In this document: one piece after another, positions 130 through 55,873 of the stretch
How positions within the stretch are numbered: position 1 is the stretch's first letter
Layout of the letters: each line of letters starts with the position of its first letter
Assembly (NCBI RefSeq): GCF_032062105.1
Contig: NW_026930547.1
Location: forward strand, 124,001-188,000
Reading direction: 5' to 3'
DNA: 64,000 bases
DNA from: Saccostrea cucullata
Lineage: Eukaryota
Program-made: the position numbers and the translations under genes
Notes under the pieces: model-generated
Seen by the model: the letters and a program-made list of their open reading frames with translations, nothing else
Told to the model about the DNA's origin: nothing
Database searches by the model: none

Positions 130-567
130 ATGGCAGTTTGGGTTACAACAACTGGATCAAACATACCAGAGGGGGCAGTAAGGGGTGGATATGAAGCGGA
201 TGGGAATCCTCTTTTTGTTGCCCGGGCACGAATTGAAGGCATCATGACGCCTGGAAAATGTGGATACCACATTCCTGGAGCTCATATTCCATATGGCATG
301 AAGGAACAAATCATCAATCAGTATGAGGTGTTGGTTCATCCCTCCAGAAGTCCTGGCTTTTTAGATTGGCAGAGGGCTTCTCATGGCAACGTGCCACCAA
401 ATGCCTACAGGACCGACAATGATACTTATGTCGGGAGAGCTTACTACCAGGGGAGTTTAGTCCCGGGGAAAATTGCCACTTCTCACCCTCACAAGTGTGC
501 TTACATAGGCTATGGAGGGAACGAAATCAGCATCAAGGATTATGAGGTCCTGTGTCAGATCAAATAA
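130..567 (+). CDS. DM9-repeat lectin (CGL1/DM9CP-like), copy 1, intact, 145 aa
   Basis: Two DM9 repeats (WV..GSNIPEGA.RGGYE.DG.PLF.ARA..PGK..AHIPYG..E..YEVL and W...G.VPPNA...YVGRA...VPGK...AYIGYGG.E...YEVL). tttcAG|a precedes the ATG; AATAAA at 721. Confidence 0.93.
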   Translation: MAVWVTTTGSNIPEGAVRGGYEADGNPLFVARARIEGIMTPGKCGYHIPGAHIPYGMKEQIINQYEVLVHPSRSPGFLDWQRASHGNVPPNAYRTDNDTYVGRAYYQGSLVPGKIATSHPHKCAYIGYGGNEISIKDYEVLCQIK

Positions 568-2231
568 AACCTGAACAGAATTTGAAATGCTCCATTAATT
601 GACGGTGGCTACAATGAATAATAAGGTCATATGCAAAGAAAAGTTATCTTTTATATAATACCGACATATATTAATAGCTATGTATACTTTCATTATGTGT
701 TCTATTTTCTAATCTTACAAAATAAAAAGATAAATATTATCTACAGATTGTATCATTGCTTATCGCTAAGTAGAATCTGTTAAATATACTTAGACTGAAC
801 CAGGGGCTCGATTTACAAAACTACCTTATGACGAAGAACTAGGAGACATGTGGTTATGGCTCCAAAAGAAATTATTCGAGACAAACTGTTATATAATATA
901 TATATTTTCGTGCAATTGTTTTACATGTATTTTCAATATTCTTTGTAAAACATGGAGCATGCATTAAGTACAGTAAAACCATGCTTGTTGATAAAGTTGT
1001 GAATAGCAATTGCTCTACTTGCATGTTTTCAACAACATATTATACACGCAGGAAATTAAAAGACTTTCTCTCTTAGCCATCATATATCTCTTTAACAAAT
1101 ACAGGACTGAAAAATGAAACACCTTCAGTTGTGTTCATAACTTTGAGAACTCTTTAAGTTTGAAATTACTATCTTCGCTTTAAAAGCACGTTGCAGGACT
1201 GGTCTACCACTAGTGTATCAAGCTCGAAGTTGAATGAACTAATCATCACTATGTGAAATGAAGGCACAGTATTTTTAGCATACCATTAAACACTCAGATT
1301 ATCAAGCATCCATAGACATCCTTTTCTCTTTAAAAAGAGAAATAGAATTTGTATATGTCTATATTGCTCTATCCAACGAATAGAGATGCATATTCACCAG
1401 GCTTGTCGAGAAAATATACACCAACTCAACGGGAAATAGATAAAAAAAAAAATAGATAAAGGAAATATTAAATCAGACAATTATAAAACTTAGATGTTCT
1501 TTTATCTCATGAGATTTTTCTTTTTAGGAAATATAACTAAAAAGAACTGAAAAGAACTATGAATGATTTCTATTAAAATTCACGAGGCATATCTTGATGA
1601 AGTTTGGCTGTTAACGTTGTCATGCCGTAAAAAGTTAAATCATGTTCAAAATATGAATTATTTTAAAACATTTGTGACAATTTCTTGCAGATTTATTTTA
1701 TTCGAACTTTTTATTGAAAGTTGTAAGGACTCGGGGATCTTGGATTCAACTCTGATGCTGAAGGCGTTTTCTGTACTGTGATAGTGCTTACTTGTACTAG
1801 ACGAAATGTAGCTAGCCCTACATTTTCACCCATGGTAAATTGTACTGTTATAATGTAAAAAAGCGTTGTTGAAAGTTGGTCTGCAACAACCGTCAAAAGA
1901 ATCTTGCATCATCAACAAAACTGCTAGGCCTAAAGTTTCTCATGAAAACTATTTAATCATTCACTTTTTAAGGCAAAAAACAAGTGCTGTTGATAATCTC
2001 GAGCTCTTACCCGCCCATAAATAATGGATAGGGTTATTTCGTGGGTAGTATCCTCCACATGTATGAGATAAACAATTAAAAATATTTGAATACTGTTTGT
2101 TATTTCCATATTTTTCATGATGTTAAAACTTCGTAATGCAAACATTTACACACAGTTGTAAATTTTAAACAACGAAAATATGACTCCCCATTTGATAGTG
2201 TAATATACATTATTGTCCTTCTTTGTGCAAA

Positions 2232-3486
2232 AACCAGAAGTCTCTGTCGAGACTGAAGCTCTACTGGTTTGCGCTTATAGAAAAGGAAGAGAAAAGTACT
2301 TAGGCAGTTGGAAATTGAAACTTTTCAACAGCAATAAATAGAATAATGATTCTTGATTAAGTCTCTTTATGTTCTTAGTGTAGTCTACTTGCATGCCACA
2401 TTATATTATAATTAGACTAAAACTGTATTTGGAGTAGCATTTTGAGAGTATTTAACAGAAATTTCTATTTTTAGTAACCATGGCAACACCATTCATTGAA
2501 GTGAAAAAATGACATACAGAATTATGTACCTTAGTGTAGTCTACTTGTGTGCCAAGTTATATTGAAATCAGACCAAAACTGTAGTAGGTGTAGCATTTTG
2601 AAAGCATTTCACAGAAATTTCTATTCTTAGTAACAACAGCAACACCGTTCATCGAAATCAAAAACCGATACACAGAATTATGTATCTTAGTGTAGTCTAC
2701 TTGTGTGCCAAGTAATATTGAAATCAGACCAAAACTGTAGGAGCAGTAGCATTTTGAAAGAATTTGACAGAAATTTCTATTTTTAGTAACCACGGCAACA
2801 CCGTTTATCGAAATCAAAACCGATACACAGAATTATGTATCTTAGTGTAGTCTACTTGTGTGCCAAGTTATATTGAAATAAGACCAAAACTGTAGTAGGT
2901 GTAGCATTTTGAAAGCATTTCAAAGAAATTTCTATTCTTAGTAACAACAGCAACACCGTTCATCGAAATCAAAAACCGATACACAGAATTATGTATCTTA
3001 GTGTAGTCTACTTGTGTGCCAAGTTATATTGAAATCAGACCAAAACTGTAGGAGCAGCAGCATTTTGAAAGAATTTGACAGAAATTTCTATTTTTAGTAA
3101 CCACGGCAACACCGTTTATCGAAATCAAAAACCGATACACAGAATTATGTATTTTAGTGTAGTCTACTTGTGTGCCAAGTTATATTGAAATCAGACCAAA
3201 ACTGTAGGAGGAGTAGCATTTGGAAAGAATTTGACAGAAATTTCTATTTTTAGTAACCACGGCAACACCGTTCATCGAAATCAAAAACCGATACACAGAA
3301 TTATGTATCTTATTGTAGTCTACTTGTGTGCCAAGTTATATTGGAATCAGACCAAAACTGTAGGAGGAGTAGCATTTTGAAAAATTGTTTACAGACAGAC
3401 AGACAGTGACGGACAAAAAAAATTAAAAATTAAACTAATAAAAAATAAAAGTAATCGAGTGTAGCAAAATCTCTAACGGAGCTGAA
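2232..3486. mobile_element. Probable non-autonomous Helentron-like element carrying a 156-bp tandem array
   Basis: Hairpin end aaaccag...ctggttt at about 2232-2270, a tandem array, and an (ACAG)n/ACGG microsatellite at about 3390-3415. This layout is typical of oyster satellite-bearing rolling-circle elements. Confidence 0.5.
2375..3385. repeat. 156-bp tandem repeat, about 6.5 units
   Basis: The ttagtgtagtctacttg anchor recurs at 2375, 2531, 2687, 2842, 2998, 3154 and 3310. Confidence 0.95.
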
Positions 3487-3503
3487 TTTATTTACAACTT
3501 CTA

Positions 3504-4110: not shown

Positions 4111-4134
4111 TGCATAAAGATCTTTCGTACGAGA

Positions 4135-4960: not shown

Positions 4961-6118
4961 ATAAAGAAAAGAATTTACTGGGTACTGTATGCTTATTTCT
5001 TCAGGAGAATTATATGAAGTTTAAGTTACTTCTTACAGTATCTTAATTGAGCACTCCCTTAAACTTTAAAATTCATGGTGCTTCTAATTGAAAAATTTTG
5101 ATAATTTCTGCGGTGCACTATCTTTATTCCATAACAGCTCTAAAGATGAAAAATATTTGACCATATTTTGGGGCACAAATTATGCCCGCTCTACATTTTT
5201 AATGAAATGTTTGTTAAACTCTGGTCACTGTGAAACAATCTTTCCTACAGAAAACCTATTTTGATTTTTTTTTCTACGAGAAAGAGCTTTATAAAGTTGA
5301 AGACACACTTGCGAACAAGTTAAAATTTAGCAACGAAGACAAAAAAATCACTTCAGATGAATTTGTTAACATTTTAAAAATTAAAAATTAGAAATATACA
5401 TACTATTCTTTTTATTTCACTTTGATTCAACAGAAAAGGAAAAGAGTCCAAGAAAATAGAGTTATCAAAATATATCTACTAATGATTATTTTAATATATA
5501 AAATATAGATTTGAATGTATCTGATTCTTTCCACGTCGATTTCATTCGAAATGCTTTGTACACAGGGCCTCATAATCCTTGTAACTGAATTCAGCTCCAC
5601 AATAGCTAATGTATGCACAGTTATCAAAATATATACCAACATAAAATCCAAGGCGTTTGGTGGATTAGCCTTCTTTTCAAATATATAAAATATATAATTT
5701 TTGAGATTTCACAAATGTGATTTTTTTAACGAGTTTTGATAATTTTTTTTATTAACAAACTAAAAACAAAACTGTGAATAATATAAATTTGCATTTTTCA
5801 TTTAATTTGAAGTAGAAATTTCAATAATTGCTAAGTCTAGAAACCTTTTTGAATTTCGAAGCTCCACAATAGCTAATGTATGCACACTTGTAATAATACG
5901 CATGCAGGAGATTTTCTAGTGTGTTTTACAATTAATATTTTGAGTTTACATTTAGTAAATGCTTCATTAATTTGATTTAGTAAAAAGTTCTTATCACTTT
6001 CTTCAGTTTGATACAAAGTATTTATATTTTGATCAAAACAATTTCTGCACTCTTTCATATAGCGTAGATTTAATTCATGTGTTATCACCACGGCTTCCTT
6101 TTTGAGGGGCCGTAAACA

Positions 6119-6367
6119 AGCCTTCTGCCAATCTAAAAAACCAGGTTTTCTCAAGGGCAAAACCAACACCTCGTACTGATTGATGATTTCTTCTTTCCTT
6201 CCATATGGGATATGGGCTCCAGGAAGGTGAAAACCGCATTTTCCAGACGTCATGATACCATGAATCTTTGCTCGGGCAATAAAAAGTGGTCGCCCATCTG
6301 TCTCGTACCCTGCTCTTATTGCATCCTCTGGAATTTTTGAACCGGTAGTTGCTACCCAAACTGCCAT
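6119..6367 (-). pseudogene. DM9 lectin copy 2, inverted and truncated after the first repeat
   Basis: ttttacAG|a precedes ATG 6367. MAVWVATTGSKIPEDAIRAGYE...GFLDWQKA then runs into unrelated sequence; the second repeat was not found. Confidence 0.85.
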
Positions 6368-8235: not shown

Positions 8236-8237
8236 TA

Positions 8238-12680: not shown

Positions 12681-13564
12681 AGTGATTTCATATTGTCCAA
12701 AACGATTGCAAAAATACATGTACATACATAATGGCTATCATAAGTTACATTCAACAAGTCCATGTTTTAAAAAAAAATCTCATTATTGACTGACGGAATG
12801 ATCTCACACGATTTTTAAATCCTACAGGAAACAATTATTTCTTAATTAATTCATGACTTTATAATCCTATCACTGACTATTTTAGTTTAAATTTTTCATT
12901 AAATAATTTCGACCATATTTTTCCCATGAGTCTTGAAAGAGCAAATAGGCATTATTCTAAAGAAAGACAGAATAAGATTTTTTTTTTCAAATGTTTTATT
13001 CTATTGAAATATATTTGAAATTAACATAGACAATATAAAATATGCAGGACTTTACAGTAACAAATCAAAGCGAATTGTTTTCTTTTGTTGTTTAAAAACA
13101 GATTACTCGTTTGTGATCTGATATATCTAGTGTAGTGTTTTACTTCAATTTGGGTTCTTAGGAAAAACAGGCACATACTGCATACGGTAAATCAGAAAAT
13201 TCTTTCTATAAATGATGAACATTTTGCTCACCTAACCAGTTCTTATGCTAAATTCGACTTATTTAGGTAATTAAGCAGCATTTTATTTACATTTTCCGGA
13301 TTAAATACTTGTGCCGTTTTATTCATTGAATTTACCAATACTTATATTTGGTATATTAGTTTGTGAAATTCATAAACAAGGAACTTAAATAAATTTTTTG
13401 ACATAATTTGAATTCAAAGAAATTTTGTCTATCCGGGTTATTATATCAATTGATTGGTTGTTTCAATGTTTTTTAACCTAAACCTGTTTATTCCTGTTAG
13501 ATTTTCTGAAATATAAATGATTAGTCGTCGTCTTCGAAAAGACCTCCCCCAGAAGGGGAAGGAA

Positions 13565-13666
13565 TATAAATACAAGAGACCATGATAGTCGCAGTGTTGG
13601 CTGCACAATTGTCATAAAAAGCAAACCTGTAAGAGTAAACCTAGTAAAAAGCATTGCAAGGTAAGT
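13565..13666 (+). promoter_or_regulatory. TATA box, non-coding leader exon and donor of DM9 copy 3
   Basis: TATAAATA at 13565-72; consensus donor caag|gtaagt at 13660/13661; matching acceptor at 15511. Confidence 0.7.
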
Positions 13667-14065
13667 CAGCATGTAGGAAAATTTAATTATATATTTAAAA
13701 AAAACTTTCTGTTTCTTAAAAATGTCAACTGAGAATATGTACATGCAGGAAATTGAATTTTCCACTGCAATATACACACTTAATTTACATGTAATGCATA
13801 GACTTACAACTGATCACTGTCATAAAAAATTGGGGTAAGTCATGAATTACAAGTTGTCCCAAGAAAAAAATATTTCAAAACAAATATTCACATGTAAGAT
13901 CTGTAAAAGAAATTATTTTATGTATTTCAAATTCTAAAACTGCAAATATATTTAATAACGAAACAAAACTGAAAGTATCTTATATACTTTTCTTATTGTG
14001 AGTGATTTGTCAGTACATTTAAATTTTAAATACACATGGCATATCATAAAATTGAAACAAATTAA

Positions 14066-15512: not shown

Positions 15513-15952
15513 ATGTCAATTTGGGTAGCATCTAGCGGTTCAAACATACCAGAGGGAGCAATAAGAGCTGGATACGACTCAAATGGGAGGCCGTTTTTTA
15601 TTGCCCAGGCAAAAATGGAGGGCGTCATGACACCTGGGAAATGCGGATTTCACCTTCATAGGGAGCCCATATTCCATATGCCACGAAAGATAAAATCATA
15701 GATCTGTACGAGGTGTTGGTTTATCCCTTAAGAAGTTCAGGCTATTTGGAGTAGCAGAAGGCTTCTAACGGCAACGTGCCACCCAATGCCTTTAAGACGG
15801 ATAATGATATCTATGTTGGAAGAGTGCTGTATCAAGGAAATTTGATCCCAGGGAAAATTGCTACTGCTCCTCGTCATAAGTGTGCATACATCGGATATGG
15901 AGGGAATGAAATCAGTATCAAAGAATATGAGGTCCTGTGTCAGGTCAAATAA
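15513..15952 (+). pseudogene. DM9 lectin copy 3, full length but disrupted
   Basis: 2-nt insertion at about 15660-61 and Trp TGG>TAG at 15752-54; otherwise collinear with copy 1. The 3' flank 15955-16250 matches 570-860. Confidence 0.9.
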
Positions 15953-17890: not shown

Positions 17891-19040
17891 AGAATTTCAT
17901 GGAATACACAACAGCATTTTTTAGCTCAAAAGTTCATTCAAACGATACAAATTAGGTGCAAAGTACGTACAGATCTTCAGGCTTTATGGTAGATTTGATC
18001 ACTTACCGACCGGTATTTACATCTGATAAACGTTTTAAACGATACCTTAATTCAAAATATTACCACTGTGCCTGATTTTTTTTTTTACATAGAACTGGGT
18101 CTAATAGTTTTAAACCAATAAAATTATTTTAATCGTTCAAACCTTAACGGTTTAAATTAAATTTGTTGAATGTGTCGATCACTTATGACGTCACTTACAA
18201 ATTGGGTAGATCGTTTATGACTGAACAATCATTTCATTATCACATGAGGAACTGTTTTTACACAGGGGTAAAAACGCCTTTTTCCAAGCGTTAATAAAGG
18301 GAGGCATTCTAAAATGTAAAAGTACGCTTATGATATTCTGTAAAACAATCGCTGTGACATACTTGAACACAATATATTTTTGCATAGATAATAGGGTTAG
18401 AATTACTAAACAGTAATAGTTCTATAAAAATTCAAGAATCTTAGTGTTCCAACTTGTTAACAGAGCATCGGATATGTACATCTAAATGTCTTTAAATACA
18501 AAATACATTAATGCAACATAATATCACGTTAATTAAACTAAAAGTATGTTTATACCTGCACTTATTTAAATATTAATGGAGTCCATGAAAATATCCTTAT
18601 TTTTTCTATTTTCCCGTAAAATTCTGGGATGATATTGAATTTAAGAATTTTTAGCAGAGATTCTGACCGTACTACGATGAATCATCCTCGGCTGCAAAAG
18701 TTTGAATTCTATATTCTATCTACGTAAAACAATCTTTGCTACATGAACCAATTTTTTTGTATATAGTTTATTACTTCACTGTCGTCAAAAGGATATTATT
18801 TCTTCCTCGTCTTTTATCTCCTTCCACAGATTTTTTGTCTCCCAAAAGCAGTTTGCGCTTCTTGTTGATATCATCACAGAAATTGTCGGTGTGACTCTGG
18901 TTTTCTCCATCAAAAGGTTCTGAGAATTCCGGAGTGTAGCAGTGAAAATAAATGAGCAAGTAAAATGAATTTAATGGTCTGTCTTCTTGTTATTAAAAAT
19001 ATAGTTTAAATATATAATAATATTTTATTAGCATTTCAGA

Positions 19041-19475
19041 ATGGTACGATGGGTAAAAACGACGGGGTCCAATATACCCGAGTGGGCAATAGAAGGTGGA
19101 TATGAGGCGAATGGGAGACCACTTTTTATTGCCCGAGCACAAATTGAAGGCGTCATGATACCTGGAAAATGTGGAAACCACCTTCCTGGAGCTCATATTC
19201 CATACAGGTCTGAAGAACGAATTGTTAAAGAGTATGACGTGTTGATTACTTCAAAAACTCCTGGATATTTTGATTGGCAAAGCGGTTCATTCGGCAATGT
19301 CCCATCACATGCTTTCAGAATAGATGATGGGATATATGTGGGTAGAGCGTTCTACCAAGGAGGTTTGGTGCCAGGGAAAGTTGATTCTTCTAGGAGGAGT
19401 GCATACATAAGCTATGGAGGGGAAGAAATCAGGATTCAGAATTACGATGTCTTCTGTGAGATTAAATTAGGATGA
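19041..19475 (+). CDS. DM9 lectin copy 4, intact, 144 aa
   Basis: Two DM9 repeats; tttcAG|a precedes the ATG. Confidence 0.92.
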   Translation: MVRWVKTTGSNIPEWAIEGGYEANGRPLFIARAQIEGVMIPGKCGNHLPGAHIPYRSEERIVKEYDVLITSKTPGYFDWQSGSFGNVPSHAFRIDDGIYVGRAFYQGGLVPGKVDSSRRSAYISYGGEEIRIQNYDVFCEIKLG

Positions 19476-20349
19476 AATAAAACGATTTTGAAAGATTAAA
19501 AATTATAATATTAGGAAGTAACGAAATAGCTCATAAGATTTCACCATAGTGCTTCAATACTATGTATACTTTGTATTTTGAACAATGCTAACAAGAGTAT
19601 TAACTTCTTTACATTTTTATTTTATTTTGATCTATTTATTTATTGCATTTTCTATTAAAGCTCAGAAATCATAATAGGATGAAAGCCGAACTGTTCAATT
19701 TGTTTTTTAGCTTCATTCCTCGATGAACAAATTAATTTATAATCATTTATTCCTATAATTTCATTTTGTTTTTTAAAAATATGCTTATAATGTATTCCTC
19801 GTCGTCATTATTTCATGTATGTTATGCCTATTCGGATCAAGTAAATGCTTTGAATAATTTTCCTGTAAGTTGTGAAAAGTTTTTGTCCTTTCCTTTCTTA
19901 CAGCTTTTATTACTTAATTATACAACATGATCATTTATTTCAATCAATCAATTTTGATTCTTTCCTTGTAATCATAGTTTTATAGTTTTAATTGGAATTA
20001 CTGATTAAAATATGATTAAGTTAAATTGTGCAAAATTATCAGCGTTATTTGTTATAAGCTTGTAAAAATATGATTAAATAATAAAATTCTCATCAAAACC
20101 ATGTGATAAAAATGTTTCATAATGAAATTTTCTTGTTTAATACTAGCCTGAATAAATATGTTAATATACTCGTTTATTTCCACATCTTATTCTCTTTTTG
20201 TATGTCTTTGTAATGTTCCAATATTTTCTTTTATGAAATATTTTGCACATTCACATTTAATTCACTCCTACAGTCCTACAAGAATGTTATGTTAATTCTC
20301 AATCTGTGTTTGTTTCCAAATGTTATGTTTTGTTTAATATTAGAAAAAG

Positions 20350-28617: not shown

Positions 28618-28644
28618 TATATTATATTTTATCAGCATTACAGA

Positions 28645-34640: not shown

Positions 34641-35063
34641 ATAAATTAATTTAAAAATATAATATATCGGGTATATTTTTTTGAAATAATACGAAATTTT
34701 TCATCTAAATGGCAGCAAATTTTAGATTGAAAAACTTTGCTGCGAAAAGTGCGTGTGGATACTATTAAAGCATTTAGTAACAGGTAACATACACAATATT
34801 AAAACATTTTTTTTTTCAATCCCGCCAAAAATTATATCATCAATGCATGTACACTGTTAAAATTAAATAGTTTATGAATAAAAAATTATTGGAAGTAAAG
34901 ATTTACATTTAAGAAGATAAACCTTTGGAGAGTTTGATAGATACACACTACCGTGCTAACCTGTCCGGTACTATCTAGTATTTTTTTTCATATATGATAA
35001 ATTTCCAATCTTTCTCAAGATCAGTTGCTTAGTTTCACTTGCCCTGCATTTTTATTACATGTA

Positions 35064-36517
35064 CAAGGGGTTATCAAAAAGTTCGTGGACTAGCGCCATC
35101 AAATTAAAACAGCTTTAAGTACATCAATGAATTTTAAAATACATGTATATATTTAGCGTCATTTTTTCTATCTAAAGAATAAACCATAAATCATAGATTT
35201 TATTTTTTAATAAATTAGTAATGTTTTTGTAAGCAACGGTTTGTCCAGGCGGCGCAACCTCGAACACGACGTTTTTGCGACCTATGTCTAACAGAGAAAA
35301 ACTCTTTTGATATGAAAATTTGATATCCAAAAGTCCTGTTCATTCGGGTATTTGTTGGGACATAACTGTTCCATAATAAATGAAATTTTGAATTTAAAAA
35401 AGTTTTGCCCCTGACAAAATTTGGTAAGAAATGTAAACTGGTTTCAGAGAAATAATATGCATCTAGGGTACTTGTTATTTAATGTCAAAACAGATCAAGA
35501 TTCAGTGAGAAAAGGGATGAATAGTTAATATCGAGTTGTAGTCAAGATATGAAAAATCAATCATGTCAAAAATGATGTTGATTATGTGTTGTAGATATTG
35601 AACTCCCAAAAGCAAAATATGCTAACACAATCAAGCGAGGATCTCTCCCAATGTATAAATCCATTTGGAATGTTATATTCATTGAAAGCCGCTGTTCATG
35701 AACTTGTAAAGTCATATTAACAAGGCAGGTTTAAGGTATCCGATCCATATTAGCCTCAGATTCAATGGAATTGAATGCATAATAGATACGTACATTACTC
35801 AGTGTAGTTAGAACTAATTTTCATCTTTCAGTATAAAAATGTAAGGATGGGACATGTCCTAATTTATGACCTTTTCCTGCCCTTGACGAGTTCTCTCCCT
35901 TTAATTTTAGTCAATAAAAATTATTTTTAAAAAATCTGTCTGGTAAAAGAAAATATTTCGAATTGTTTTTCTTCCCAATTATCAAATACATCTTTTCATT
36001 ACATCATTTTTTGAATATTTGAAGTATTTATTTTTTTATCTTAAAAAACTTACTTCCTTCCATAGACTTCAATGCAATTTTCAATAATTTATTTCTGCTT
36101 AGGTAATAAAATTTTTGAAAATTTCTCTTGGTAAATCCCTTTCTACTCTAAAATGCTTTAAAATAATATCAGGATATTTTACAAACAATTGATATTTAAG
36201 GTTAGAAATTTTGGTCCTTAAGTCCTTACTCAGCTCCGGGGAATCTCATCAAAATAAGTGTATGAGGTAGAGGAAGCGGACATTGAAAAACAAAGACGTT
36301 GTCAGACGTCATGAAACTAAACGGCGACAGCGCCGGGTGATCATAAAATGTCGTTTTGCTTTTATAATAATTTGGTAAATAATGTACGCATCAAGCTAAA
36401 ATTTTCAACATTTTTTTGTTGTTGTTGTTGTTTTTATGTTCCATATAAATGTTGAAAGCACAGACTACATAGTGTTAATTTTATAGCCTCAGTCCACGAA
36501 CTTTTGATATCCCCTCG
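35064..36517. mobile_element. Non-autonomous mariner-like element (1454 bp)
   Basis: ta|caaggggttatcaaaaagttcgtggact ... agtccacgaacttttgatatcccctcg|ta. Confidence 0.85.
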
Positions 36518-37642
36518 TATCTATCGCATGAATCTTTATTTTCATTTTTGATTTTATTTGACAAACTTTTCTTCCTTCCTTTAACTTCCCAATCTTTATT
36601 TTGTTTCAATATCGCATGTACCGATGCAAGATATTATTGTTTTGCCCTTTTACTTCCCTTTGATTTCCCTTTCTTTATCATGATTTTAAGATGATGAATT
36701 TTGATAATTTTTATCTTGTGTTTTTTTTCTTTAATTGTGATTCTCTTCAATGATTGGACAGAAATTAGTAAATATTTGTTTTCAATAATATTTTTCCCGT
36801 GTCAATTTAGGCGGGGAGGTGCGTCCAAAAGGCCAAGAAAAAATATATAGACAAATTATGAAGAACATAAAACGTACCATGAGCAGAAACAATCTTGAAA
36901 TTTTTGAAATACTAAACAAATTTAGAAATATATCGTTTAATTTGGCAAAGTCAAAATCAACAGCATTTTTAAGCGATCACTTTGTATCACTATGTGTTTT
37001 ATAATCATTCCTTCATGTTTAGTAGTCAATTTCAAGACTACCGATGTTGACCAATATCCCAATCAGTTGTTATTCAACTACAGTCCATATTTGTATATTA
37101 TTTCCACTTTGATCTTCTTATTTGTACTAAAAGTGTTTTAAGTGTTTTTTTTATTGTCATATTTGGTTTTGAAAGCTGCTACGGTATCATTAAGTCACAA
37201 AAAAAAACCAATTCACTTATCACACTTAATGAAAGTTAATTTTTATTGCTGTTCAAGGATAAAAACTTACTGCTCTTCAATATTTTATCGGAGGAGCAAA
37301 TATCAATTGTGTTAACTTACAGTATTTTCAACATAAAGAATATAGAATAAACTTTAATGCATACAACAATTATTCATTGTATTTTGTAATTCATAAGATT
37401 TCTGCATTATAAAAACTGAAGCGATCGTTTGATCTAAAAGTTTCAGTTGTCGTTAGTTAGTAATAAAGTTATCATCATAGTAATGCATGATCTGAAAACT
37501 TTTCTTTAATTTTTTAAATCAAGGACATACACATAGATTCTGACATTAGATATGTTATCAATGGGTTTTTTTTCTTGTTAGATTACCATAAACGCAATTG
37601 GTCAATCGCCTCAAGCGTAATATCCTCCAGAAAGAGGGGGGT

Positions 37643-37737
37643 TATATAAAAAGGAGCCCCCAAATCAAAGAATAAGCTGTGCATTTACATATAAAAACAG
37701 AGCTGACACCCTAAAACCTCAGCCTTCCAAGGTAAGT
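37643..37737 (+). promoter_or_regulatory. TATA box, non-coding leader exon and donor of DM9 copy 7
   Basis: TATATAAAAA at 37643; caag|gtaagt at 37731/37732; acceptor at 38616. Same geometry as the 13565 leader. Confidence 0.7.
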
Positions 37738-38617
37738 TAACATCAAATGTTAATTTTTTTTCCTAAATGTTTTTGAGGGTTTCAAATACCTAAAACATAT
37801 ATTATATGAAAGCGTAAGCTTTAAGAATTATTATAAGGCACTGCATTTTTTACTTAAAATCTTCACGTATAACATCAAGCTCCAGACAGCTCAGTATTAC
37901 GTTCCGTTACACCTCATACCAAGTAGTCCCGGAGAGTTAATACTGTATGGAGTTTGGTACAACATGTATAATAAATATAACAATCCGTTCTCAAAGCCTG
38001 TTGAATACAGTTTGAACCAACAGCATTGCTTTTGTCTCAGTTAATGTGATTTATTCTTACAATTTTACCTTCAGAATGAGCTCAGAATAATTAAATACTA
38101 AATATAAACGGCAATGCTTGGGAACAAACAATCCGGCATTCCTCTTTCAAAATTGTCTTCCTTCAAAATTGTAAATAACTGTCAAACTTATTATTAGGAC
38201 ACATACACAGTAGTTTAAACAGTTTTGAATAACAATAAACTGAAGCTAAATGAGGCTCACGGTTTTATACTGAAATTTGACAATTTATGTAAATTTTAAT
38301 TTGGCCCCACCAGCCAAAGTGATAAGGAGATCGCTTAATCGTTATTGCAGATAAATAACTGCATGGTTTATTGATCAGAATTAATATATGACCGGATGTT
38401 TTATAAGGTTCAAGTGTTCTTCCATGATGGTAATTAGCTATATTTCAACTGCTGTATCTACAGTGCTTAGAATTTTATATTAAATCTTACTTGTATTGTC
38501 GCCCTCTTAATAAAACAATATGCTCGTAATTTTATATTAAAATCTTACTTGTCGCCCTCTTGTTAAAACAATGCGTACAAGCATGGTTATACATTATGTG
38601 TTTGCCTTGTTTACAGA

Positions 38618-39049
38618 ATGGCGAGCTGGGTATCAACAAGCGGGTCAAGCATACCACCCGAGGCAGTAAGAGCTGGATATGAGGCTGACGGAAGACCACT
38701 TTTTATTGCAAGGGCTATCATGAGTGGCACCATGACACCCGGGAAATGCGGGTATCATCTTGATGGAGCCCGTATTCCATATGCCTCGAGTGAGCACATC
38801 GTTAATTGTTATGAAGTTCTAGTTTTTCCTTCAATTAGTAATGGGTTTTTAGATTGGCAGAAATGTTCTAACGGCTACGTGCCAGACAACGCTTTCAAGA
38901 CGGACGACGGGATCTATGTCGGTAGAGCGTACCATGAAGGGAGCCTAGTGCCAGGGAAAATCCACGTTTCTCACAAAACTGCCTACGTCAGTTATGGGGG
39001 AGATGAACACGCTATTAAAGATTACGAGGTGCTCACGGAGGTCAAATGA
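38618..39049 (+). CDS. DM9 lectin copy 7, intact, 143 aa
   Basis: Two DM9 repeats; tttacAG|a precedes the ATG; AATAAA at about 39189. Confidence 0.93.
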   Translation: MASWVSTSGSSIPPEAVRAGYEADGRPLFIARAIMSGTMTPGKCGYHLDGARIPYASSEHIVNCYEVLVFPSISNGFLDWQKCSNGYVPDNAFKTDDGIYVGRAYHEGSLVPGKIHVSHKTAYVSYGGDEHAIKDYEVLTEVK

Positions 39050-41223
39050 AGTTTCTACGACGATTAAAACAATTCTGAAATGAAATCCAGCTTATCGGTC
39101 TTGTTTTTGTACCTCAGAATAACATCTATCAATATTATCTGCATGTTCTCTTCATTTTTTTTTTATTTTCTTCTCTCAAAGTAAAAGCAATAAAGATTTT
39201 ATTCATCTTGCATATTTTGGTCTCTCTTTTTTTCAAATGTAAATTCTTCGTACATGTACATTTATGGTACAGCAAGCAACACGTAAATTTCTTTAAAAAA
39301 TTAAATTAATTTAATTTAAGCAGAATGCTACAGTTCAGATTAAATAAAATCTTCTCTGCTAGCGTTTTCATTCATGTCGGATTTGTAGACAGCAGAGAGA
39401 AATCGAAAAGGGTTATCGACTGAAAGCGCTAACAGTAAAGATTGAAATGAATTTGATTTGTAGCATCGTATGAGGAATATAAAGGCGTATAGAGGTTAAT
39501 GGACAATCTTAGTCCAAAGGCCGTAAATAAAAGCAGCGTGACAAATTTGAAGCGAATATTTGACAATCTTTCAAAAACAGTCGTTACAGGGACTTAAGCA
39601 TGTGTCAACTTATCACTCATAAGATGAGAAAAACTGACTTTAATTCAGTAAAATGGAGAATTTCACGCGTAAAAAAGGATGGAGAATATACCACTCCCGT
39701 ACCCATAGCTACCGCAAGATTTTGACCAAAGTAATTTTTTTCCTGTTAATTTTTTTATCACCTGTCAATAGTTGCTAGAAGATCCTGTTTATTACTGGAA
39801 TTGTTCCGTCAGTGGTTTTTTTTTTAATTTAGAATATAAATGATATACAATATTTTAATATCGAGCGAAATCCTAGTTGAATAAAACGTCTCTACCAAGT
39901 GCTTAAAGTTCAAATATATATTGTAAATGAAAAAAGATAGATAGCATACATGTATTAGGTTAATTTTTAAAATGTCTGCAATACTGTTTGATACATAAGT
40001 TGAGTAATAAATTGAAACTTTTATTATAGAAAATTGATAAACTTATAGTGATTACTTTCTATTTCTATTTTCTCGAGCGTGTTCTTACTACAGTTGTGCA
40101 GTTAAATATTGTATACTTTTTCTTTAGGTTCATTTTGGCAAACTAGGAACACAATGTAGAAACATATTAGACTTACTTTTCCTTTGATCTTTAATTCATT
40201 CGAAATTGAGATATATCCCATACTTTCATAATGGAATAAATAATTTTTCTTCATGAAATCTAAACATAACGAGCAAAAAATATTATCTTAAATGTTCATT
40301 GAAACCAAAACAAAGTGAAAACACCAGTCGGATCAGGTGTAAGCATTTCCTGACGAAATGTCACTTACATCGTATGTTCCTTATCATGATTGGGCAAACT
40401 GAAAACATAGAAAATAGAGTATAAAAATAGTTATATATAATAGACTACCGACGACATACACGAAAATATAGAAAAAGATAGATGTAATGACACTTGCTTC
40501 TTAATTCAATATTTTACTAGATATAAATATTTTATTTGCATGTCAAAGTAAAAAAGAGTGTCAATTTATTTTACACTTAACATGCTTCTTTATTTCTTTA
40601 CGAAGGATTTCATTAGTCAAAATGTAGAATGCAAAATTGAAAATTATAAAATACAAATGGAAACGATCGAAGATTGCAACAACTGACAATTTAACACTTT
40701 CTATTTTAAGTTATGCACAAAAACTGATAATCTTTTTAATATGAAATATCAGCTTTGGTTCAGTATAAAGAGACTTGATGAAAGGATTTCCTAAAATCAA
40801 TTGGCACTTCTGCCTCTCTCAACTGCATATAATTACTTCTAAGAAAAACATTCAGGGAAAATCCATACTCGTGTAAATTTTGCTTACAAGGATACAAATT
40901 TCAATTTATTACTCTGAACACTTTAGTTAGGCAAGAAAAATAACTCAATTTAAGATTTGTTATAATTTGGCACAAAGGAAAAGCTTAGAAAGCAGCCCAT
41001 TCAAGATTTGTTTCAAGTGAATGTATCTTTATCTTCATGCAGTTTCAAAGTCAAATTCCACATGCTTGTACACATGTATTAAAATCAAAATGTTACTAAA
41101 TTATTTACGACAAAATATTACCAATATTTCAACTGCTATTTTTTAATTGAATACATCATAATTTCAGACAAACAAAGCTTGTTTAACTATAATTCATAAA
41201 AAGTTTATATTTTGAAACAAATA

Positions 41224-41921
41224 AAGAACCACGAACGATAGTATTGTTCTCCCGCCTACCTCTAAGTCAATTTTCAAAAGTTAACAAATAAGAATGATTT
41301 TCAAAATTTTTATAGATAATTATATGAATTTTCATAAAACGTTACTTATTTGGGATATCAAAGAGAGATAAATCTATAATTTTGGCAAAACTTGTGTTTT
41401 TTACTATAGAAATCAACGGAAAACGGAAAATATTTTTAAAACATCTTTCCTCCCCATGAAACAAAAATTCCATTTTACAGGTAATATGGACTCTCATTTT
41501 ACAAATTTATGCCAAAGCTTTTGGTGTTTCACGGGGGGGAACATATGTTTATAGACAAAAAACGAAAAAAATGCGGATTTTTCACCAATTTTAAAGCTAT
41601 TTACAACTAAATAATTGTATTTTATTAATTAATATATGTTTTAATTATTTGCGTAAAACATAAGAAAAGATATTAGATACATTTTATCATATTTAAAACT
41701 ATTTCAAAATATGGTGATCCTTGAAAGTTCGATTTCACTAGAAAATATCGTCTACCCCCCTTTTTTTCAAGAACTGGAATTAATGATAATTTACTATCTA
41801 GCACTGGAATTAGAATGATTAATCAATTACCATAGAACTGTTCTTTGTATTAAACAAAGATTTAATGGCCAGATTGCCATTAAAATTTAATGCAAAATGT
41901 AGGCGGGAATTCGTAGTTCTT
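41224..41921. mobile_element. Non-autonomous DNA transposon of about 700 bp with imperfect TIRs
   Basis: aagaaccacgaa...cccgcctac / gtaggcgggaattcgtagttctt; absent at the paralogous site at about 26505. Confidence 0.65.
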
Positions 41922-42789
41922 AATGTTAATATAGGGAGCGTGCCGTTTTATTTATGAAAAATATTTCAAGTTAATGAAGTAATGAAAAACAAAATTGGTT
42001 TTGGTAAATAAAATGCAAATTTAGTTTAAAATGATACTTTATCACGGTATAATATAATGTTTAAAATATACTTTATCATGGTATAATATAAAGTTTAAAA
42101 TATTTGAATTTATTAAAAGTATGTCGTATATTGCATATTACAATTTATTCTATTTGATGTCAATCCATAGTTGATCAAGAAAAGATATACATAAGATGGG
42201 TTATTTAAAAAAAAAAAATTCTTAAGAACTATTGCGCCAGAAATTAAAAGATGAAACATACGCGGGCACTTCCTGAAAAATAAGCTAAAATATATTTTTA
42301 AAAAAGGAAAGGAATCCAGAATTATTAAAATAATTAAAAAACCAATTATTTGTCAACATATAAAATATGTGTATCAAATTATATATGACGCCTGTATAAA
42401 GAAAAAAGATTTTTCCCCTCTTTTTTTATTTCTAACTACAAAGCCATATCAGTTATAATTGATATTTAAGCATCCCGACAATGTATACATTCAGAAATCA
42501 CCTAAAATTAAGATGAAACATGGTAGGTGGTCACATTTTAATGGGAAAAGATGGTTGATATAATAACCTTGTCAACCAAAACAGTTTATCATTGAGTCAA
42601 ATGCTGTCTGAATTTCTAATACTGATTGTTAGGTCATTATTAACACACTGAGTTGTCCACATATTTTTTCCGTTTTTTTTCTCGAACATAAAAAGGAGCA
42701 AACGGCAAGTGTGACCGGTCAGCTTGAGATGTTCACTCCTCCGTAGCACCTGATCTCTGTCTAATTTCCTCATTATTTATTCCTTTTCT

Positions 42790-43855: not shown

Positions 43856-45679
43856 TAAGTTTTAGAAAGCCCATAAAGAAGAGAGGGGCATGGGTGAACG
43901 TTGTGGCGCATGAGCCCTTTTAAATTGAACAGGCACACAACTTTACAATTTTAATATTCCCTTTTGTTTTAAAGAAAAGATCAAGAAATTCTCCCCATTG
44001 TTTACCATTTATAGTGTTGATAACTGATGTTGATCAATTTTATTGTAAAAAAAAAAATTCATAAACAGCATTAAGAAATTCTTCCTTGCTGTTTTTTCTC
44101 AGGGTCGCATCGGAAGTTTATGTTAAAAAGGGTTTTTTTGGAATATCTGATACAGTATCTGAAGGCCTCAGACGATGTACTGAAGAACTATAATTATAGA
44201 TACCACACTTCTATTTCAATTTCCTAATTAAATTCTTTTTTCATTTGGTACTGACGCCTATGTTTGGTTGTGTGAATACCATTTCCTAGTTACAAGTTCT
44301 ATACAACCTACGAATATAGGAGCTTTGCAAACATATTTTTTATAGATAACGTTACATTGGTAAATTTACGGTGGGCTTTATAAACTTAGAATTTAAAAGA
44401 AATATAATACAAATTCTCTCTACCTGCATCTTCCAATCTTGGGTATCGAAAATATTAATTCCTTCTTGTGGGCTAAACGAAAATAATCAGTTTTAAGAAA
44501 TACACCCTAATTTGTTAGAATTTTTCCAATAGCGATTTAAAAAATTAGCATGCGAAAAAAGTTTTCAAATATCAATATAAAATTTTGTGTATCCCATGAT
44601 TCACATCATGTAAAATTTAGAAATATTGATATAAAAAAATTAATAGTAAAATCAAAAGCTCCAGACAACCATCAGTTTTTTATTAAATCGTTACGGTATT
44701 TCGTTGACCCGCGTTTAAATCGGCACTGCATGATTCTATAAGTCATCCTTTCCCACAAATGAAAATTTTTGCAATGCCATTCAAGTTTGAATAGTTTACA
44801 AGATACTGGTTGATGTAAAGTTATATGTTAACAAAGAAAAAAATTAAACTTTGCATCGTTTTACATGCAAAACCATTTACTACGTTAAATTAGCGATGCT
44901 GCTCCGGGTCGATGACATATGCATGTTTATCAATTTCGAAACTTTTATATTTATATGAAATTTTGCATAATTATTTTATACTTTCTTTATACAATGTTTG
45001 AATTTTATGAAATTATTAAAAATGTCATTGTCTCAATAATTTGTGTTACTTTGGTAAATTTACGGTGGGTTTTATAAACTTCATTTAGACATATAACACA
45101 AATTCTCTCCCTTCTTCCAATCTTGGGTATTATTAATTCCTTCTTGGGGCTGAACAAGTATCATGTTTAATAAATACACCCTAATTTGTTCCTTTTACCA
45201 AATCGATTTCATTAGCATACAGTTTTCAATATCAATATAAAACCCATGATTCACATCATGTAAAATTTAGAAATATTAAATACTTCTAAAATTCCCCAGT
45301 TTCCTGAAAGCAAGATAATCTATGAATAACAAGTGCGTGTTCTTAACGGTCTACAAGTAAATACAAAAGGAGGAAGAAGTTTCGATTTTTTTTCCTTTTT
45401 GTGGTGGTATCTTGTCATATTAATAATAGCTCCCACTGTCAGTATTGCAGAACCTAGTGTAAGTACAAAATTTATCTCTCCAATTCTCTCAAAGGCATGT
45501 CTTTTCACCACTCGCATTCTAATGTTGTAATATTTGAATGTTAATTATGAAGATATGTAGAAAATAATGTTAGTCCCTCAACGATATGTGTCAGAACAGT
45601 ATAGATAGGATTCCTTATGTGACTTACACTGTATATTACTTTTTTGCTTTTAAAGAAATTTTTAACAACCCTCCCCCCT

Positions 45680-45836: not shown

Positions 45837-46274
45837 ATGGCAGTTTGGGTAACAACATTTGGGTCGCACATACCAGAAGGAGCAATGAGAGGTGGATTTG
45901 AGGCTGATGGTCGACCTCTCTTTATCGCTCGGGCACAGATTGAAGGAATCATGACGCCCGGAAAATGTGGATTTCACCTTCCTGGAGCGCTGTTCCCATT
46001 CGGCATGACAGAACAATCTTCCTATATGTACGAGGTGCTGGTCCATCCAACAAGAAGTCGCGATTTTTTCGACTGGCAGAGGGCTTCCGAAGGCAAGGTG
46101 CCGCCAAATGCTTACAAGACGGACAAAGACACGTATATTGGTAGAGCTTTCTACCAAGGAAATCTATTGCCAGGGAAAATTGCCACGGGACATCCTCACT
46201 GGTGTGCATACATTGGTTATAGAGGGAATGAAATTAGTACGAAGGATTATGAGGTTCTTTGTCAGTTAAAATAA
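45837..46274 (+). CDS. DM9 lectin copy 8, intact, 145 aa
   Basis: atcAG|a precedes ATG 45837; the track start at 45819 is an intronic TTG. Two DM9 repeats, with GALFPF in place of GAHIPY. Confidence 0.9.
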   Translation: MAVWVTTFGSHIPEGAMRGGFEADGRPLFIARAQIEGIMTPGKCGFHLPGALFPFGMTEQSSYMYEVLVHPTRSRDFFDWQRASEGKVPPNAYKTDKDTYIGRAFYQGNLLPGKIATGHPHWCAYIGYRGNEISTKDYEVLCQLK

Positions 46275-51463: not shown

Positions 51464-51901
51464 ATGGCAGTTTGGGTTACAACAACCGGGTCAAACATAC
51501 CAGAGGGGGCAATAAGGGGTGGATATGAGGCGGATGGGAAACCACTTTTTATTGCCCGAGCACAAATTGAAGGCGTCATGACGCCTGGAAAATGTGGAAA
51601 TCACCTTCCTGGAGCTCATATTCCATATGGCATGAAGGAACAAATCTTCAAACAGTACGAAGTGTTGGTTCATCCCTCGGGTAATCCTGGATTTTTAGAT
51701 TGGCAGAAGGTTTCTAACGGCAACGTGCCACCGAATGCCTATAGGACCGACAATGATACGTATGTTGGGAGAGCTTTCTACCAGGGGAGTTTAGTGCCAG
51801 GGAAAGTTGCTTCTTCTGAGCCTCACAAGTGTGCATACATCGGTCACGGGGGCCAAGAAATCAGTGTAAAGGAATGTGAGGTTCTGTGTCAGATGAAATA
51901 A
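51464..51901 (+). CDS. DM9 lectin copy 9, intact, 145 aa (closest overall to copy 1)
   Basis: tttcAG|t precedes the ATG; two DM9 repeats. Confidence 0.93.
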   Translation: MAVWVTTTGSNIPEGAIRGGYEADGKPLFIARAQIEGVMTPGKCGNHLPGAHIPYGMKEQIFKQYEVLVHPSGNPGFLDWQKVSNGNVPPNAYRTDNDTYVGRAFYQGSLVPGKVASSEPHKCAYIGHGGQEISVKECEVLCQMK

Positions 51902-52806: not shown

Positions 52807-53934
52807 CTCCTTGTCATGATCGAGTAACTGATCTGTAAATTCTACGTCACAGTCCATATCAATCTTCAATATATTGAGTGGGAATTCAGTCTGAAAAATC
52901 AATTTCAATGCAGCTATATATATATTTAAATTTCCCCTGTTTCCTTATCGCTAATTTAGAACAGGGAATACAATATTGGAAATTTTGGATCAGAGATTAT
53001 TGAAACGATATATTTTAAGTACATTTTGCTAAATTTGTCTCTACTTCTGTCTAAATCTAATATATTATTTCCTTCAGTGATTAAAATCGTGTAAAAAAAA
53101 TACTGGTATATATCTTTATTATTTCGGTATAGGAGGAAATATCATAAATTCCATTTAACATTGACACTCAAAACTAGTGATTTTAAATTAACATTCCTAC
53201 ATATTTTTTTTCGCGCTTGTTTTGTACAAACCCTTGTCCATCGATAGGTATGTATTTTTTTTTATTTTGATTAACACCAAACAGAGGTGAACAAGGATCT
53301 ACGTATCTTAGTGTCGTATTTACATACAATTTTTTATCATTATGATTAACTCACAAATACCATAAAATTAGCAGAAGAAGCCATTATTATGGCGCACGAT
53401 TCCATAATATTTAAGTTTGATGGAAGTGTACTTATTTTTAACTTCTATACTTCTTGATGGAGGAACTTGAAAAATTAGCTCACAGTACATAATTATTCAG
53501 TAATGATCAATGCTAGCGATTGAATGTATGGATATTAAAATATTTTTTCCTCTTGAAATTAATGTTCCACCTATTAACAATATTAAGCAGAACTCTTCTT
53601 AAGGTTCAGTTTTTAAAAAGATAAACTGGAATTATATATTCGGGATGTAGAAAGATAAATTTTTAATATAGTGTTACATTAGCAAGTTATTATTTTATCA
53701 TAAATTTACACATTCACGTGAACTACTAGTATCTTCCTGTTATATAAATACTACAAAAGAGGAAACTATAGCTCAGCCATAATTGTACAGGATACAGCAA
53801 AATCCTGTTTGTAAAATTATCAGTAATATTTAAATTTTCATATTTTTTTTTTCGCTATATAAATTAAGCATAGAATAATATTTTATTTTATTATTTAGTT
53901 AATATAAAGACTACTCTAAATATTAACGTTTTCA

Positions 53935-55408
53935 TAATTATACCTGAGCTTGAAGGCTCAAGTGAGCTTTTCTGTAATCACCATTTTGTCCGTCGTCCGT
54001 CCGTCTGTCCGTCCGTAAACTTTTCACATTTTCGCCACTTTCTTCTCAAGAACCAATGGGCGCAAATTGAAGGCATCAAACTTGGTACAAAGATATCCTT
54101 AGGGGAAGGGGAGTTTAAATGTAAAGAGAGGGCTGATCAGCCAGTACAAGGTGTTGAGATAATCTACAAAAGACAAAAATTGGGTGGGGTCATTTAAAAA
54201 TCTTCTTCTCAAGAACCACTGGGCCAGGAAAGCTGAAACTTATATGGAAGCATCTTTGGATAGTATAGATATTAAATTGTTAAAATCATGACCCCTCGGG
54301 GGCAGGGCGGGGCAACAATAGGAAATCCAAATTTCACATAGAAATTTATAGAACAAATTTTTAAAAATCTTCTTCTGTAAGTTTATTTCACTGGGCTTTC
54401 AAATGACTGCATATTATTTCTTGTGGATAAAATCCTTGAATAAAAAGTGTGTTAGATATTAAATTGTTAAAACCAAAAATTTCGGGGGTACAAAGTGGCC
54501 ACATTTCATAGGAATTCCAAGTTTTACATAGAATGTAAAGAACAAATCTTTAAAAATCTTCTTCTCAAGAACCACAGGGCCAGATGAAATTGCTGAAACT
54601 TATGTGGAAAAATTCCTTGGGTATTGTCAATTTTAAATTGTTAAAACCATGGAGCTCCGGGGTTGCGTGGCCACAATAGGGAATTCAAGTTTTACATAGA
54701 AATGTATAGATACAAATTTTAATTATCTTATTGGCATAAACCACTGGGCATTTTTTTTAGCAAAGTAAAAATCTTGGAAGCATTCTGGGGTAGTGTAGAA
54801 TAATTGTTGCAAAAATTGGTGCTTGCGTTTCCTTTATGGTTTTTTAAGTTTTACATAGAAATATATTGATCAAATCTTTAAAAATATCTTCTCAAGAACC
54901 ACTGGGACAGGAAATAAACTGTTATATTATTAACACACTGAATTTGTTCAGTAATATTAAATTTTATGAAATAACACTACGGGTGTGACCGGGGCCACAA
55001 TGGTATGCCAATTCTTTACATAGATATATTTAGGAAAAATGTTTTAGGAATTTTTTTCTCAGTTTTTCTGCTGTTTCAAGGAAATTTTGACTTGATTATG
55101 TGTAAGCATCCTTATTTAGGAATATTCAATTTTATCATAAAGGGTAGGCTTCTTGCCAAAATATGGGAATCCAAGTTTTACATAGACTAAAATTCACACA
55201 AAAATTTATAACATTCCTTACATTTACAAAAACACTTGGTCAAAAGCTGAAACTTATGTGAAAGCAATTTCTTGCTATGTAGATTTACAGTATTAAAATC
55301 ATGAAGGGGATAGGGGGGATGATAGGTATAGCAAGAGGGTAAATCGGGTAAAGAAGTCCATAAAACAAGTTACAAAATAAGAGCATGAGCAAACATGGGC
55401 CTCTTGTT
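53935..55408 (+). mobile_element. Helentron-type non-autonomous element with a Cg170/HindIII-like satellite array (patchwork sequence)
   Basis: 5' cctgagc..aaggctcaagtgagcttttct, a (GTCC)n microsatellite, repeated aaaatcttcttctcaagaaccactgggc units of about 170 bp, and 3' catgggcctcttgtt. Confidence 0.8.
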
Positions 55409-55435
55409 ATAATTATACTGCTGTGCTTGAACAGA

Positions 55436-55873
55436 ATGGCAGTCTGGGTAACCACCACCGGATGTCACATTCCTGAAGGAGCGATACGAGCAGGGTACGA
55501 GGCAGACGGTCGGCCACTTTTTATTGCCCTGGCGCAAATTGAAGGCATCATGACGCCTGGTAAATGTGGCTATCACTTACCGGGAGCCCATATTCCGTAC
55601 GGATGTAAAGAGAGGATTATTAGCCAGTACGAGGTGTTGGTCCATCCGACAAACGCCTCGGGCTTTTTTGATTGGCAGCGTGCTTCCGGCGGAAATGTTC
55701 CTGATACTGCGTTCAAGACTGACAAGGAGACTTATATTGGTCGGGCTCACCATTCGGGGAGCCTTATTCCGTGTAAGATTGCTACAGGGTACCAACATAA
55801 ATGTGCTTACATGAGTTATGGCGGGAAAGAACATAACACAAAGGACTATGAGGTGCTCTGCACAATCAAATAA
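55436..55873 (+). CDS. DM9 lectin copy 10, intact, 145 aa
   Basis: aacAG|a precedes ATG 55436; two DM9 repeats, with SLIPCK as recalled for CGL1. Confidence 0.92.
   Translation: MAVWVTTTGCHIPEGAIRAGYEADGRPLFIALAQIEGIMTPGKCGYHLPGAHIPYGCKERIISQYEVLVHPTNASGFFDWQRASGGNVPDTAFKTDKETYIGRAHHSGSLIPCKIATGYQHKCAYMSYGGKEHNTKDYEVLCTIK

What the first reader, a model, noticed from the sequence alone, without database searches (positions are those of the whole stretch)
130..55873. Ten-copy tandem array of DM9 lectins: a diversified pattern-recognition repertoire under birth-and-death evolution
Seen: 7 open ORFs (130, 19041, 28645, 38618, 45837, 51464, 55436) and 3 pseudogenes (6367 on -, 15513, about 22523) within 56 kb; the array may extend left of the window. 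Known: DM9-only proteins such as oyster CGL1/CgDM9CP-1 are mannose-binding pattern-recognition lectins without signal peptides. Inference: this is a rapidly turning-over immune receptor cluster, probably with copy-number and presence/absence variation between individuals.
Basis: partly seen in the sequence, partly recalled or inferred. Interest (0 to 1): 0.7.

Follow-up and report, generated by a model that had tools for sequence, protein, structure and literature searches.

The report
Oyster mannose-lectin gene cluster
A rock oyster carries ten copies of a known sugar-binding lectin gene side by side, seven intact and three broken, and they likely bind mannose on microbes; the cluster gains and loses copies slowly while its core sugar-binding residues stay fixed, which is ordinary for oyster immune genes.

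Summary
The array is real: 7 intact two-DM9 genes and 3 broken copies at the stated places. It does not extend left: no DM9 match in 124 kb left or 70 kb right. Database labels on this contig read Saccostrea cucullata. The fold is that of CGL1 (TM 0.95-0.97), but the copies group with the CgDM9CP-3 clade, not CGL1. Birth-and-death holds: genus-specific expansions, a duplicated two-gene cassette, three recent deaths. "Rapid, diversified" is not supported. Five intact copies have S. echinata counterparts in apparently the same order, four of them clear. Omega is 0.26 with no positive-selection signal. Five core mannose-contact residues are invariant in 7 of 7 intact copies. Counterparts of two broken copies occur in a related oyster. 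Presence/absence between individuals was not testable. One lead: an upstream exon gives copy 130 a hydrophobic leader, and its homologue before copy 45837 shows synonymous-only changes but three stops, so it may be a relic signal-peptide exon.

The parts
130..567 (+). DM9x2 lectin gene, intact (c130); counterpart of S. echinata LOC133186105; promoter and upstream exons lie left of the window
   Evidence: 92% aa; 88/83; AlphaFold model matches CGL1, TM 0.95-0.97
5560..6367 (-). Broken, inverted DM9 copy (p6367): codons 1-83, foreign DNA, tail fragment 5622-5560; lacks the K114 region
   Evidence: NCBI models it as a spliced 121-aa product, P0032
8206..8418 (-). Conserved TATA promoter and non-coding first exon (module 1) of p6367
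   Evidence: sequence homology; function inferred
13469..13676 (+). Module 1 promoter and first exon of p15513, donor at 13661
15513..15952 (+). Pseudogene p15513: 2-nt insertion and premature TAG
   Evidence: counterpart in DNA and guessed-RNA contigs of a related oyster
18820..27923 (+). First copy of a duplicated two-gene cassette (c19041 + p22500)
   Evidence: self-blastn blocks of 82-93% identity to 28298-42370
19041..19475 (+). DM9x2 lectin gene, intact, divergent subfamily (c19041); no S. echinata counterpart found
   Evidence: two family members in contigs of a related oyster
22520..22914 (+). Pseudogene p22500: 5' end lost, 15-nt deletion, 1-nt frameshift; sister of c38618
   Evidence: 97%-identical guessed-RNA contig, one base longer, in a related oyster
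28298..42370 (+). Second copy of the cassette (c28645 + c38618), with a LINE inserted
28645..29076 (+). DM9x2 gene, open but possibly decaying (c28645): E22K, P13S, G102V at near-invariant sites
   Evidence: tip omega 0.67, not different from 1 or from background
30964..33568 (+). Frameshifted LINE retrotransposon (RVT_1) inside the second cassette
37551..37748 (+). Module 1 promoter and first exon of c38618, donor at 37732
38618..39049 (+). DM9x2 gene, intact (c38618), H52R; best match of S. echinata XP_061177365
   Evidence: (74%)
45305..45465 (+). Second upstream module (no TATA box seen), homologous to the leader exon of c130; donor at 45459
   Evidence: (z 7-12)
45837..46274 (+). DM9x2 gene, intact (c45837), H52L; orthologue of S. 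echinata LOC133186107
   Evidence: 86%; 100/99
51464..51901 (+). DM9x2 gene, intact (c51464); probable counterpart of S. echinata XP_061177368
   Evidence: 85%, tied with c130; unresolved; SH-aLRT 85, together with c19041/c28645
53209..53247 (+). Non-coding upstream exon of c55436
   Evidence: joint 53245>55433, GT..AG, one contig of run X17; no ATG
55436..55873 (+). DM9x2 gene, intact (c55436), most distant from the other copies; orthologue of S. echinata LOC133186109
   Evidence: 90%; 95/96

Best explanation
This is a ten-copy tandem cluster of CGL1-type two-DM9 lectin genes in a Saccostrea oyster, seven intact and three broken, whose proteins likely bind terminal mannose on microbes as leaderless pattern-recognition lectins. 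Shown: fold, conserved Lys/Glu/Tyr contacts at both sites, purifying selection, a cassette duplication, three broken copies. Inferred: copies arise by unequal crossing-over in repeat-rich DNA and by cassette duplication, most survivors keep the same sugar specificity, and the differences between copies lie mainly in dose and expression (different upstream modules) plus small changes in stacking residues. Turnover is slow birth-and-death: a five-gene backbone shared with S. echinata and a labile zone between 6 and 29 kb.
For: DM9 in 7 of 7. CGL1 best PDB hit; model TM 0.95-0.97, rmsd 0.7-0.8 A. K43, E59, K114, Y123, E130 equivalents invariant in 7 of 7 intact copies and in 115-117 of 117 stored homologues. 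Glu at position 22 is the family norm (109 of 117), and CgDM9CP-4 with E22 binds mannose (PMC7907646, passages). M0 omega 0.26; M8 vs M7 2dlnL 0.02. Upper 95% bound below 1 in 55 of 55 pairs. S. echinata counterparts at 92, 74, 86, 85, 90% with consecutive accessions on one scaffold. Genus-specific clades in C. gigas, C. virginica and Saccostrea. Contig pieces from guessed-RNA runs of related oysters cover c38618, c45837, c51464, c55436, the c19041 family, p22500 and part of p15513.
Against: No binding or immune assay exists for any of these copies. The S. echinata gene order rests on accession numbers, not DNA. c51464 orthology is ambiguous (85% tie). The c19041/c28645 stem is accelerated (omega 0.50 against 0.27, p=0.048, one of five tests, uncorrected), and stacking positions vary (H52R, H52L, F126-equivalent Y to H), so some change of specificity is possible. 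The site test has only 8 sequences of 145 codons and low power. No upstream module was found for c19041, c28645, c51464 or p22500. RNA status of the runs is a guess and they are from other oysters.
Confidence: 0.75

Rival explanations
1. A fast-turning, diversifying immune repertoire with presence/absence variation between individuals.
For: 3 of 10 copies broken; cassette duplication; c19041/c28645 have no S. echinata match and a long, faster stem; p22500 looks unbroken at the frameshift in a related oyster; variable stacking residues.
Against: Five-gene backbone shared with S. echinata; no positive selection; invariant core contacts; labile-zone copies also exist in a relative about 10% diverged in non-coding DNA, so they are not very young.
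Confidence: 0.15
2. The lectins serve a non-immune role, such as intracellular handling of high-mannose glycans, stress response or mucus function, and the cluster reflects dosage only.
For: Native CGL1 is N-acetylated at Ala2, as expected of a cytosolic protein (PMC4932603, parts 2-3 of 6); fluke and mosquito DM9 proteins relocate to vesicles under stress (PMC10377782, passages); no immune data for these copies.
Against: C. gigas DM9CP-1 to -8 are reported to bind microbes and act in immune responses (PMC5712788, PMC12379375, PMC12059677, passages); CgDM9CP-3 lies in the same clade.
Confidence: 0.08
3. Assembly artefact: uncollapsed haplotypes or sequencing errors create the copies or the pseudogenes.
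For: Fragmented assembly of 23,869 contigs; single 1-2 nt indels could be errors.
Against: Copies differ by 9% or more in coding DNA; distinct contigs for distinct copies in independent runs; each broken copy has two or more lesions or a rearrangement; one contig piece of run X1 matches p22500's 3' part with 1 difference in 198.
Confidence: 0.02

Closest known systems
CGL1 / CgDM9CP-1 of Crassostrea gigas (PDB 5ID8, 5IDB, 5MH0-3)
   Same: Two DM9 repeats, 143-145 aa, same fold (TM 0.95-0.97), same Lys/Glu/Tyr contacts at both mannose sites
   Different: 42-61% identity to a CGL1 allele; separate clade; Asp22 is Glu in six intact copies and Lys in one; no close CGL1 orthologue among the 29 scored candidates of this genome
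CgDM9CP-3 (K1QUG6) and its C. gigas neighbours LOC105327554/555, LOC117690720/721
   Same: Same clade as all window copies (SH-aLRT 97); E22/K43; consecutive accessions XP_034331152-163 suggest a tandem cluster there too (inferred)
   Different: C. gigas copies form their own expansion; none is a one-to-one orthologue of a window copy
Saccostrea echinata LOC133186105-109 cluster
   Same: Five proteins on one 25.1-Mb scaffold matching five window copies in accession order
   Different: No annotated match for c19041/c28645; proteins nearest p6367 and p15513 lie on other scaffolds or match weakly
Fish natterins (DM9 plus aerolysin-like domain)
   Same: Share the N-terminal DM9 lectin module, hence the database label natterin-like
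   Different: Window proteins end after the two DM9 repeats and have no pore-forming domain (PMC4932603)

Membership tests
DM9-only lectins (DM9CP, CGL1 type) | Two tandem DM9 repeats and no other domain | tested here: met
   7 of 7 intact ORFs, Pfam PF11901 only
DM9-only lectins (DM9CP, CGL1 type) | CGL1 all-beta two-domain fold | tested here: met
   c130 model pLDDT 94.4; TM 0.95-0.97 to CGL1 chains; the other six were not modelled
DM9-only lectins (DM9CP, CGL1 type) | Mannose contacts K43, E59 (site A) and K114, Y123, E130 (site B) | tested here: met
   Invariant in 7 of 7 intact copies (residues from PMC4932603)
DM9-only lectins (DM9CP, CGL1 type) | Acidic residue at position 22 (Asp in CGL1, essential there; Glu in CgDM9CP-4) | tested here: inconclusive
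   Glu in 6 of 7, Lys in c28645; D22A abolishes binding in CGL1; E22 protein binds mannose
DM9-only lectins (DM9CP, CGL1 type) | No signal peptide | tested here: inconclusive
   ORFs begin at the DM9 Met; upstream exons of c55436 and c38618 have no ATG; but an NCBI isoform of c130 has a 17-aa hydrophobic leader
DM9-only lectins (DM9CP, CGL1 type) | Measured binding to mannose and microbes | not testable with these tools
   Needs recombinant protein
Natterin toxins | [quoted passage not shown] | tested here: not met
   Stop codon directly after the second DM9 repeat in 7 of 7
Birth-and-death multigene family | Lineage-specific duplicates plus pseudogenes | tested here: met
Birth-and-death multigene family | Copies not homogenised (no concerted evolution) | tested here: met
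   Paralogues 49-87% aa identical; four of five backbone copies closer to an S. echinata protein than to any intact paralogue by 8 points or more, c51464 by 2
Diversifying immune repertoire with presence/absence variation | Positively selected sites | tested here: not met
   M8 vs M7 p=0.99, M8 vs M8a p=0.49; 8 sequences, low power
Diversifying immune repertoire with presence/absence variation | Copies missing in some individuals | not testable with these tools
   Only contigs of a few runs, mostly other oysters

The most novel reading that the evidence does not exclude
Oyster DM9 lectin genes carry two alternative upstream modules, and one holds a coding exon for a cleavable signal peptide. 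Copy 130 would then make both a cytosolic and a secreted lectin from one gene, while sister copies kept one module or let the leader decay. This would explain how some leaderless-looking DM9CPs reach the haemolymph. Basis: NCBI isoform P0036 with a 17-aa hydrophobic leader; in the homologous exon before c45837, six of six differences in nine codons are synonymous, around three in-frame stops (P about 0.003, region chosen after looking). Against: T-rich DNA gives such hydrophobic frames in 6% of shuffles; no close homologue with this leader among the best 150 representatives; no RNA evidence seen here for that splice.
Probability: 0.12. Interest if true: 0.6.

Novelty: new member of a known kind. 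Interest (0 to 1): 0.33.

Why it matters
Modestly. Oyster DM9 lectins have been studied one gene at a time in C. gigas (seven to eight named). My paper searches (listings only, open-access library) showed no title or abstract on their genomic clustering or on Saccostrea copies. The locus gives a small, clean case of birth-and-death with a stable backbone, and a natural set of binding-pocket variants (E22K, H52R, H52L) for testing what sets specificity. It also shows that database models here are unreliable: one fuses c19041 to a pseudogene half. If the leader exon proves real, it would bear on how these lectins are secreted.

Tried and rejected
Left extension of the array: rejected. Shared single first exon spliced to alternative DM9 exons: not supported, because four window-array copies have their own module 1 and c55436 has its own spliced exon; not excluded for c19041, c28645 and c51464, whose first exons were not found. 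Glu22 as an array-specific specificity switch: rejected, it is the family norm. Positive selection: not found. Branch tests on c28645, c19041, c45837 and pseudogene tips against background: not significant. Leader-bearing homologues: of the 150 listed I read 6, among them four with early-starting matches. One fragment, P0296, has a similar hydrophobic run, but it may be intron read-through. Earlier-findings look-ups returned nothing. No complex prediction was run. Supplements were not read; Fig. S1A of PMC12379375 and the C. gigas DM9CP papers outside the library may hold alignments or loci that bear on novelty.
Full report
Observation. Six-frame translation, tblastn and blastn of the window give seven intact single-coding-exon ORFs of 143-145 aa at the stated starts and three broken copies. 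All seven pass the Pfam DM9 cut-off. The best solved-structure match is oyster CGL1 (E 1.7e-47). An AlphaFold model of c130 (pLDDT 94.4) overlays CGL1 at TM 0.95-0.97. The array is bounded: no DM9 match in 124 kb left or 70 kb right. Two searches of the genome found one related single gene on another contig and a more distant DM9 subfamily elsewhere, but no second copy of this array (lower bounds). NCBI proteins from a contig of the same length, one identical to c130 and one starting with c19041, are labelled Saccostrea cucullata.

Anatomy. Every intact ATG follows a splice acceptor by one base, so each gene has upstream exons. A conserved TATA-type promoter with a non-coding exon (module 1; c130's TATA box is imperfect) precedes c130, p6367, p15513, c38618 and the off-array gene. 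A second module without a clear TATA box precedes c130 and c45837. c55436 has its own upstream exon, joined GT..AG in one contig of a guessed-RNA run. No module was found for 4 of 10 copies. The stretch 18820-27923 is repeated as 28298-42370, a two-gene cassette (c19041+p22500 and c28645+c38618), with a LINE in the second copy. dS is 0.19 and 0.28 for the two gene pairs.

Orthology. S. echinata has five DM9 proteins on one 25.1-Mb scaffold with consecutive accessions. They match c130, c38618, c45837, c51464 and c55436 at 92, 74, 86, 85 and 90%, in window order if accession order reflects position (inferred). Tree support is 88/83, 93/93 (clade shared with p22500 and the off-array gene), 100/99, unresolved, and 95/96 (44 rows). 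A second tree of 46 rows picked from the stored proteins, favouring named ones, puts all window copies in one clade with CgDM9CP-3 and apart from CGL1, with separate expansions in C. gigas and C. virginica; two long-branch O. edulis proteins nest among the Saccostrea copies. c19041 and c28645 have no S. echinata match.

Other oysters. Contig pieces from runs of related oysters (RNA status guessed; 7 of 20 listed runs laid) cover c38618, c45837, c51464 and c55436 at 90-97%, two members of the c19041 family (93% and 87%), p15513 (about 90%, DNA and guessed RNA) and p22500 (9 differences and one gap in 305). That last piece is one base longer than the window, which fits an allele without the frameshift, although the place of the gap was not shown. 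So the labile-zone copies are older than this species' split from that relative, and what differs is probably whether they still work.

Selection and binding sites. Own-code codon models on 8 intact genes give omega 0.26 and no positively selected class. All 55 pairwise estimates among 11 sequences have an upper bound below 1. Pseudogene tips show omega 0.39, significantly below 1, so they died late. The c19041/c28645 stem is faster (0.50, p=0.048, uncorrected among five tests), and the c28645 tip (0.67) cannot be told from neutral. CGL1's contacts (PMC4932603, parts 2-3 of 6 read) K43, E59, K114, Y123 and E130 are invariant in 7 of 7 intact copies; positions 22, 52, 55, 56, 126 and 127 vary. 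Glu22 is the norm (109 of 117) and is compatible with mannose binding in CgDM9CP-4 (PMC7907646, passages). Lys22 in c28645 likely weakens site A, given that D22A abolishes binding in CGL1 (PMC5712788, passages).

Mechanism. Most likely these are small mannose-binding pattern-recognition lectins like the C. gigas DM9CPs (PMC12379375, PMC12059677, PMC10377782, passages), multiplied by local duplication in repeat-rich DNA and pruned slowly. Specificity looks largely conserved; divergence in upstream modules suggests differences in expression. Binding, immune role and expression pattern are inferred from relatives and untested here.

Lead on secretion. NCBI's isoform X1 of c130 (P0036) adds 17 hydrophobic residues from two upstream exons, ending about 6.4 kb and 0.9 kb before the ATG. 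The homologous exon before c45837 keeps nine of those codons with six differences, all synonymous, but has three stops between them and no ATG. The chance figure of 0.003 is post hoc; 6% of shuffles of the exon are as hydrophobic; no close homologue with such a leader appeared. None of 22 fluke DM9CP sequences has a predicted signal peptide (PMC11727788, passages). I give the secreted-isoform reading 12%.

Verdict. A real, well-defined cluster of a known lectin family under ordinary birth-and-death evolution. Interest 0.33.

Noticed in passing
window 59457-62060 (+): Gene next to the array with a weak HEPN_DZIP3 match (E 0.0036, below cut-off) and a Neuralized domain (E 7e-8).
   Followed up: partly
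L002:673-3258 and L004:6322-8115 (+), 17-34 kb left of the window: Two long single-frame ORFs with repeated FkbM-type methyltransferase domains, three and two stretches; the nearest long non-transposon ORFs on the left.
   Followed up: partly
G000:C13013:326851-429616 and contigs C731, C4668, C5259, C8752, C16154, C18035, C18747: A second, more distant DM9 subfamily (43-50% to c130) with at least five copies on C13013 and an acidic C-terminal tail; some copies are near-identical or broken.
   Followed up: partly
G000:C17835:27788-28210 (L021:4783-5211, -): Single off-array copy with its own module 1 promoter; groups with c38618 and p22500.
   Followed up: yes
window 19041-22914: NCBI model LOC134228971 (P0003, 231 aa) fuses c19041 to the second half of pseudogene p22500; probably an annotation artefact.
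   Followed up: partly
whole genome G000: No close CGL1/CgDM9CP-1 orthologue among 29 scored candidates; best identity over the full length 61%.
   Followed up: partly
window 2367-3395: Tandem repeat of about 156-bp units at 84-93% identity.
   Followed up: no
G000:C12684 about 120457-122124 (L001): A 556-aa reverse-transcriptase-like ORF on the minus strand lies between the two upstream exons of c130's long isoform (family judged by eye).
   Followed up: no
window 51464-51901 and 22556-22859: These two copies match contigs of related oysters at 97%, while the other copies match at 90-93% (different runs); unexplained.
   Followed up: no
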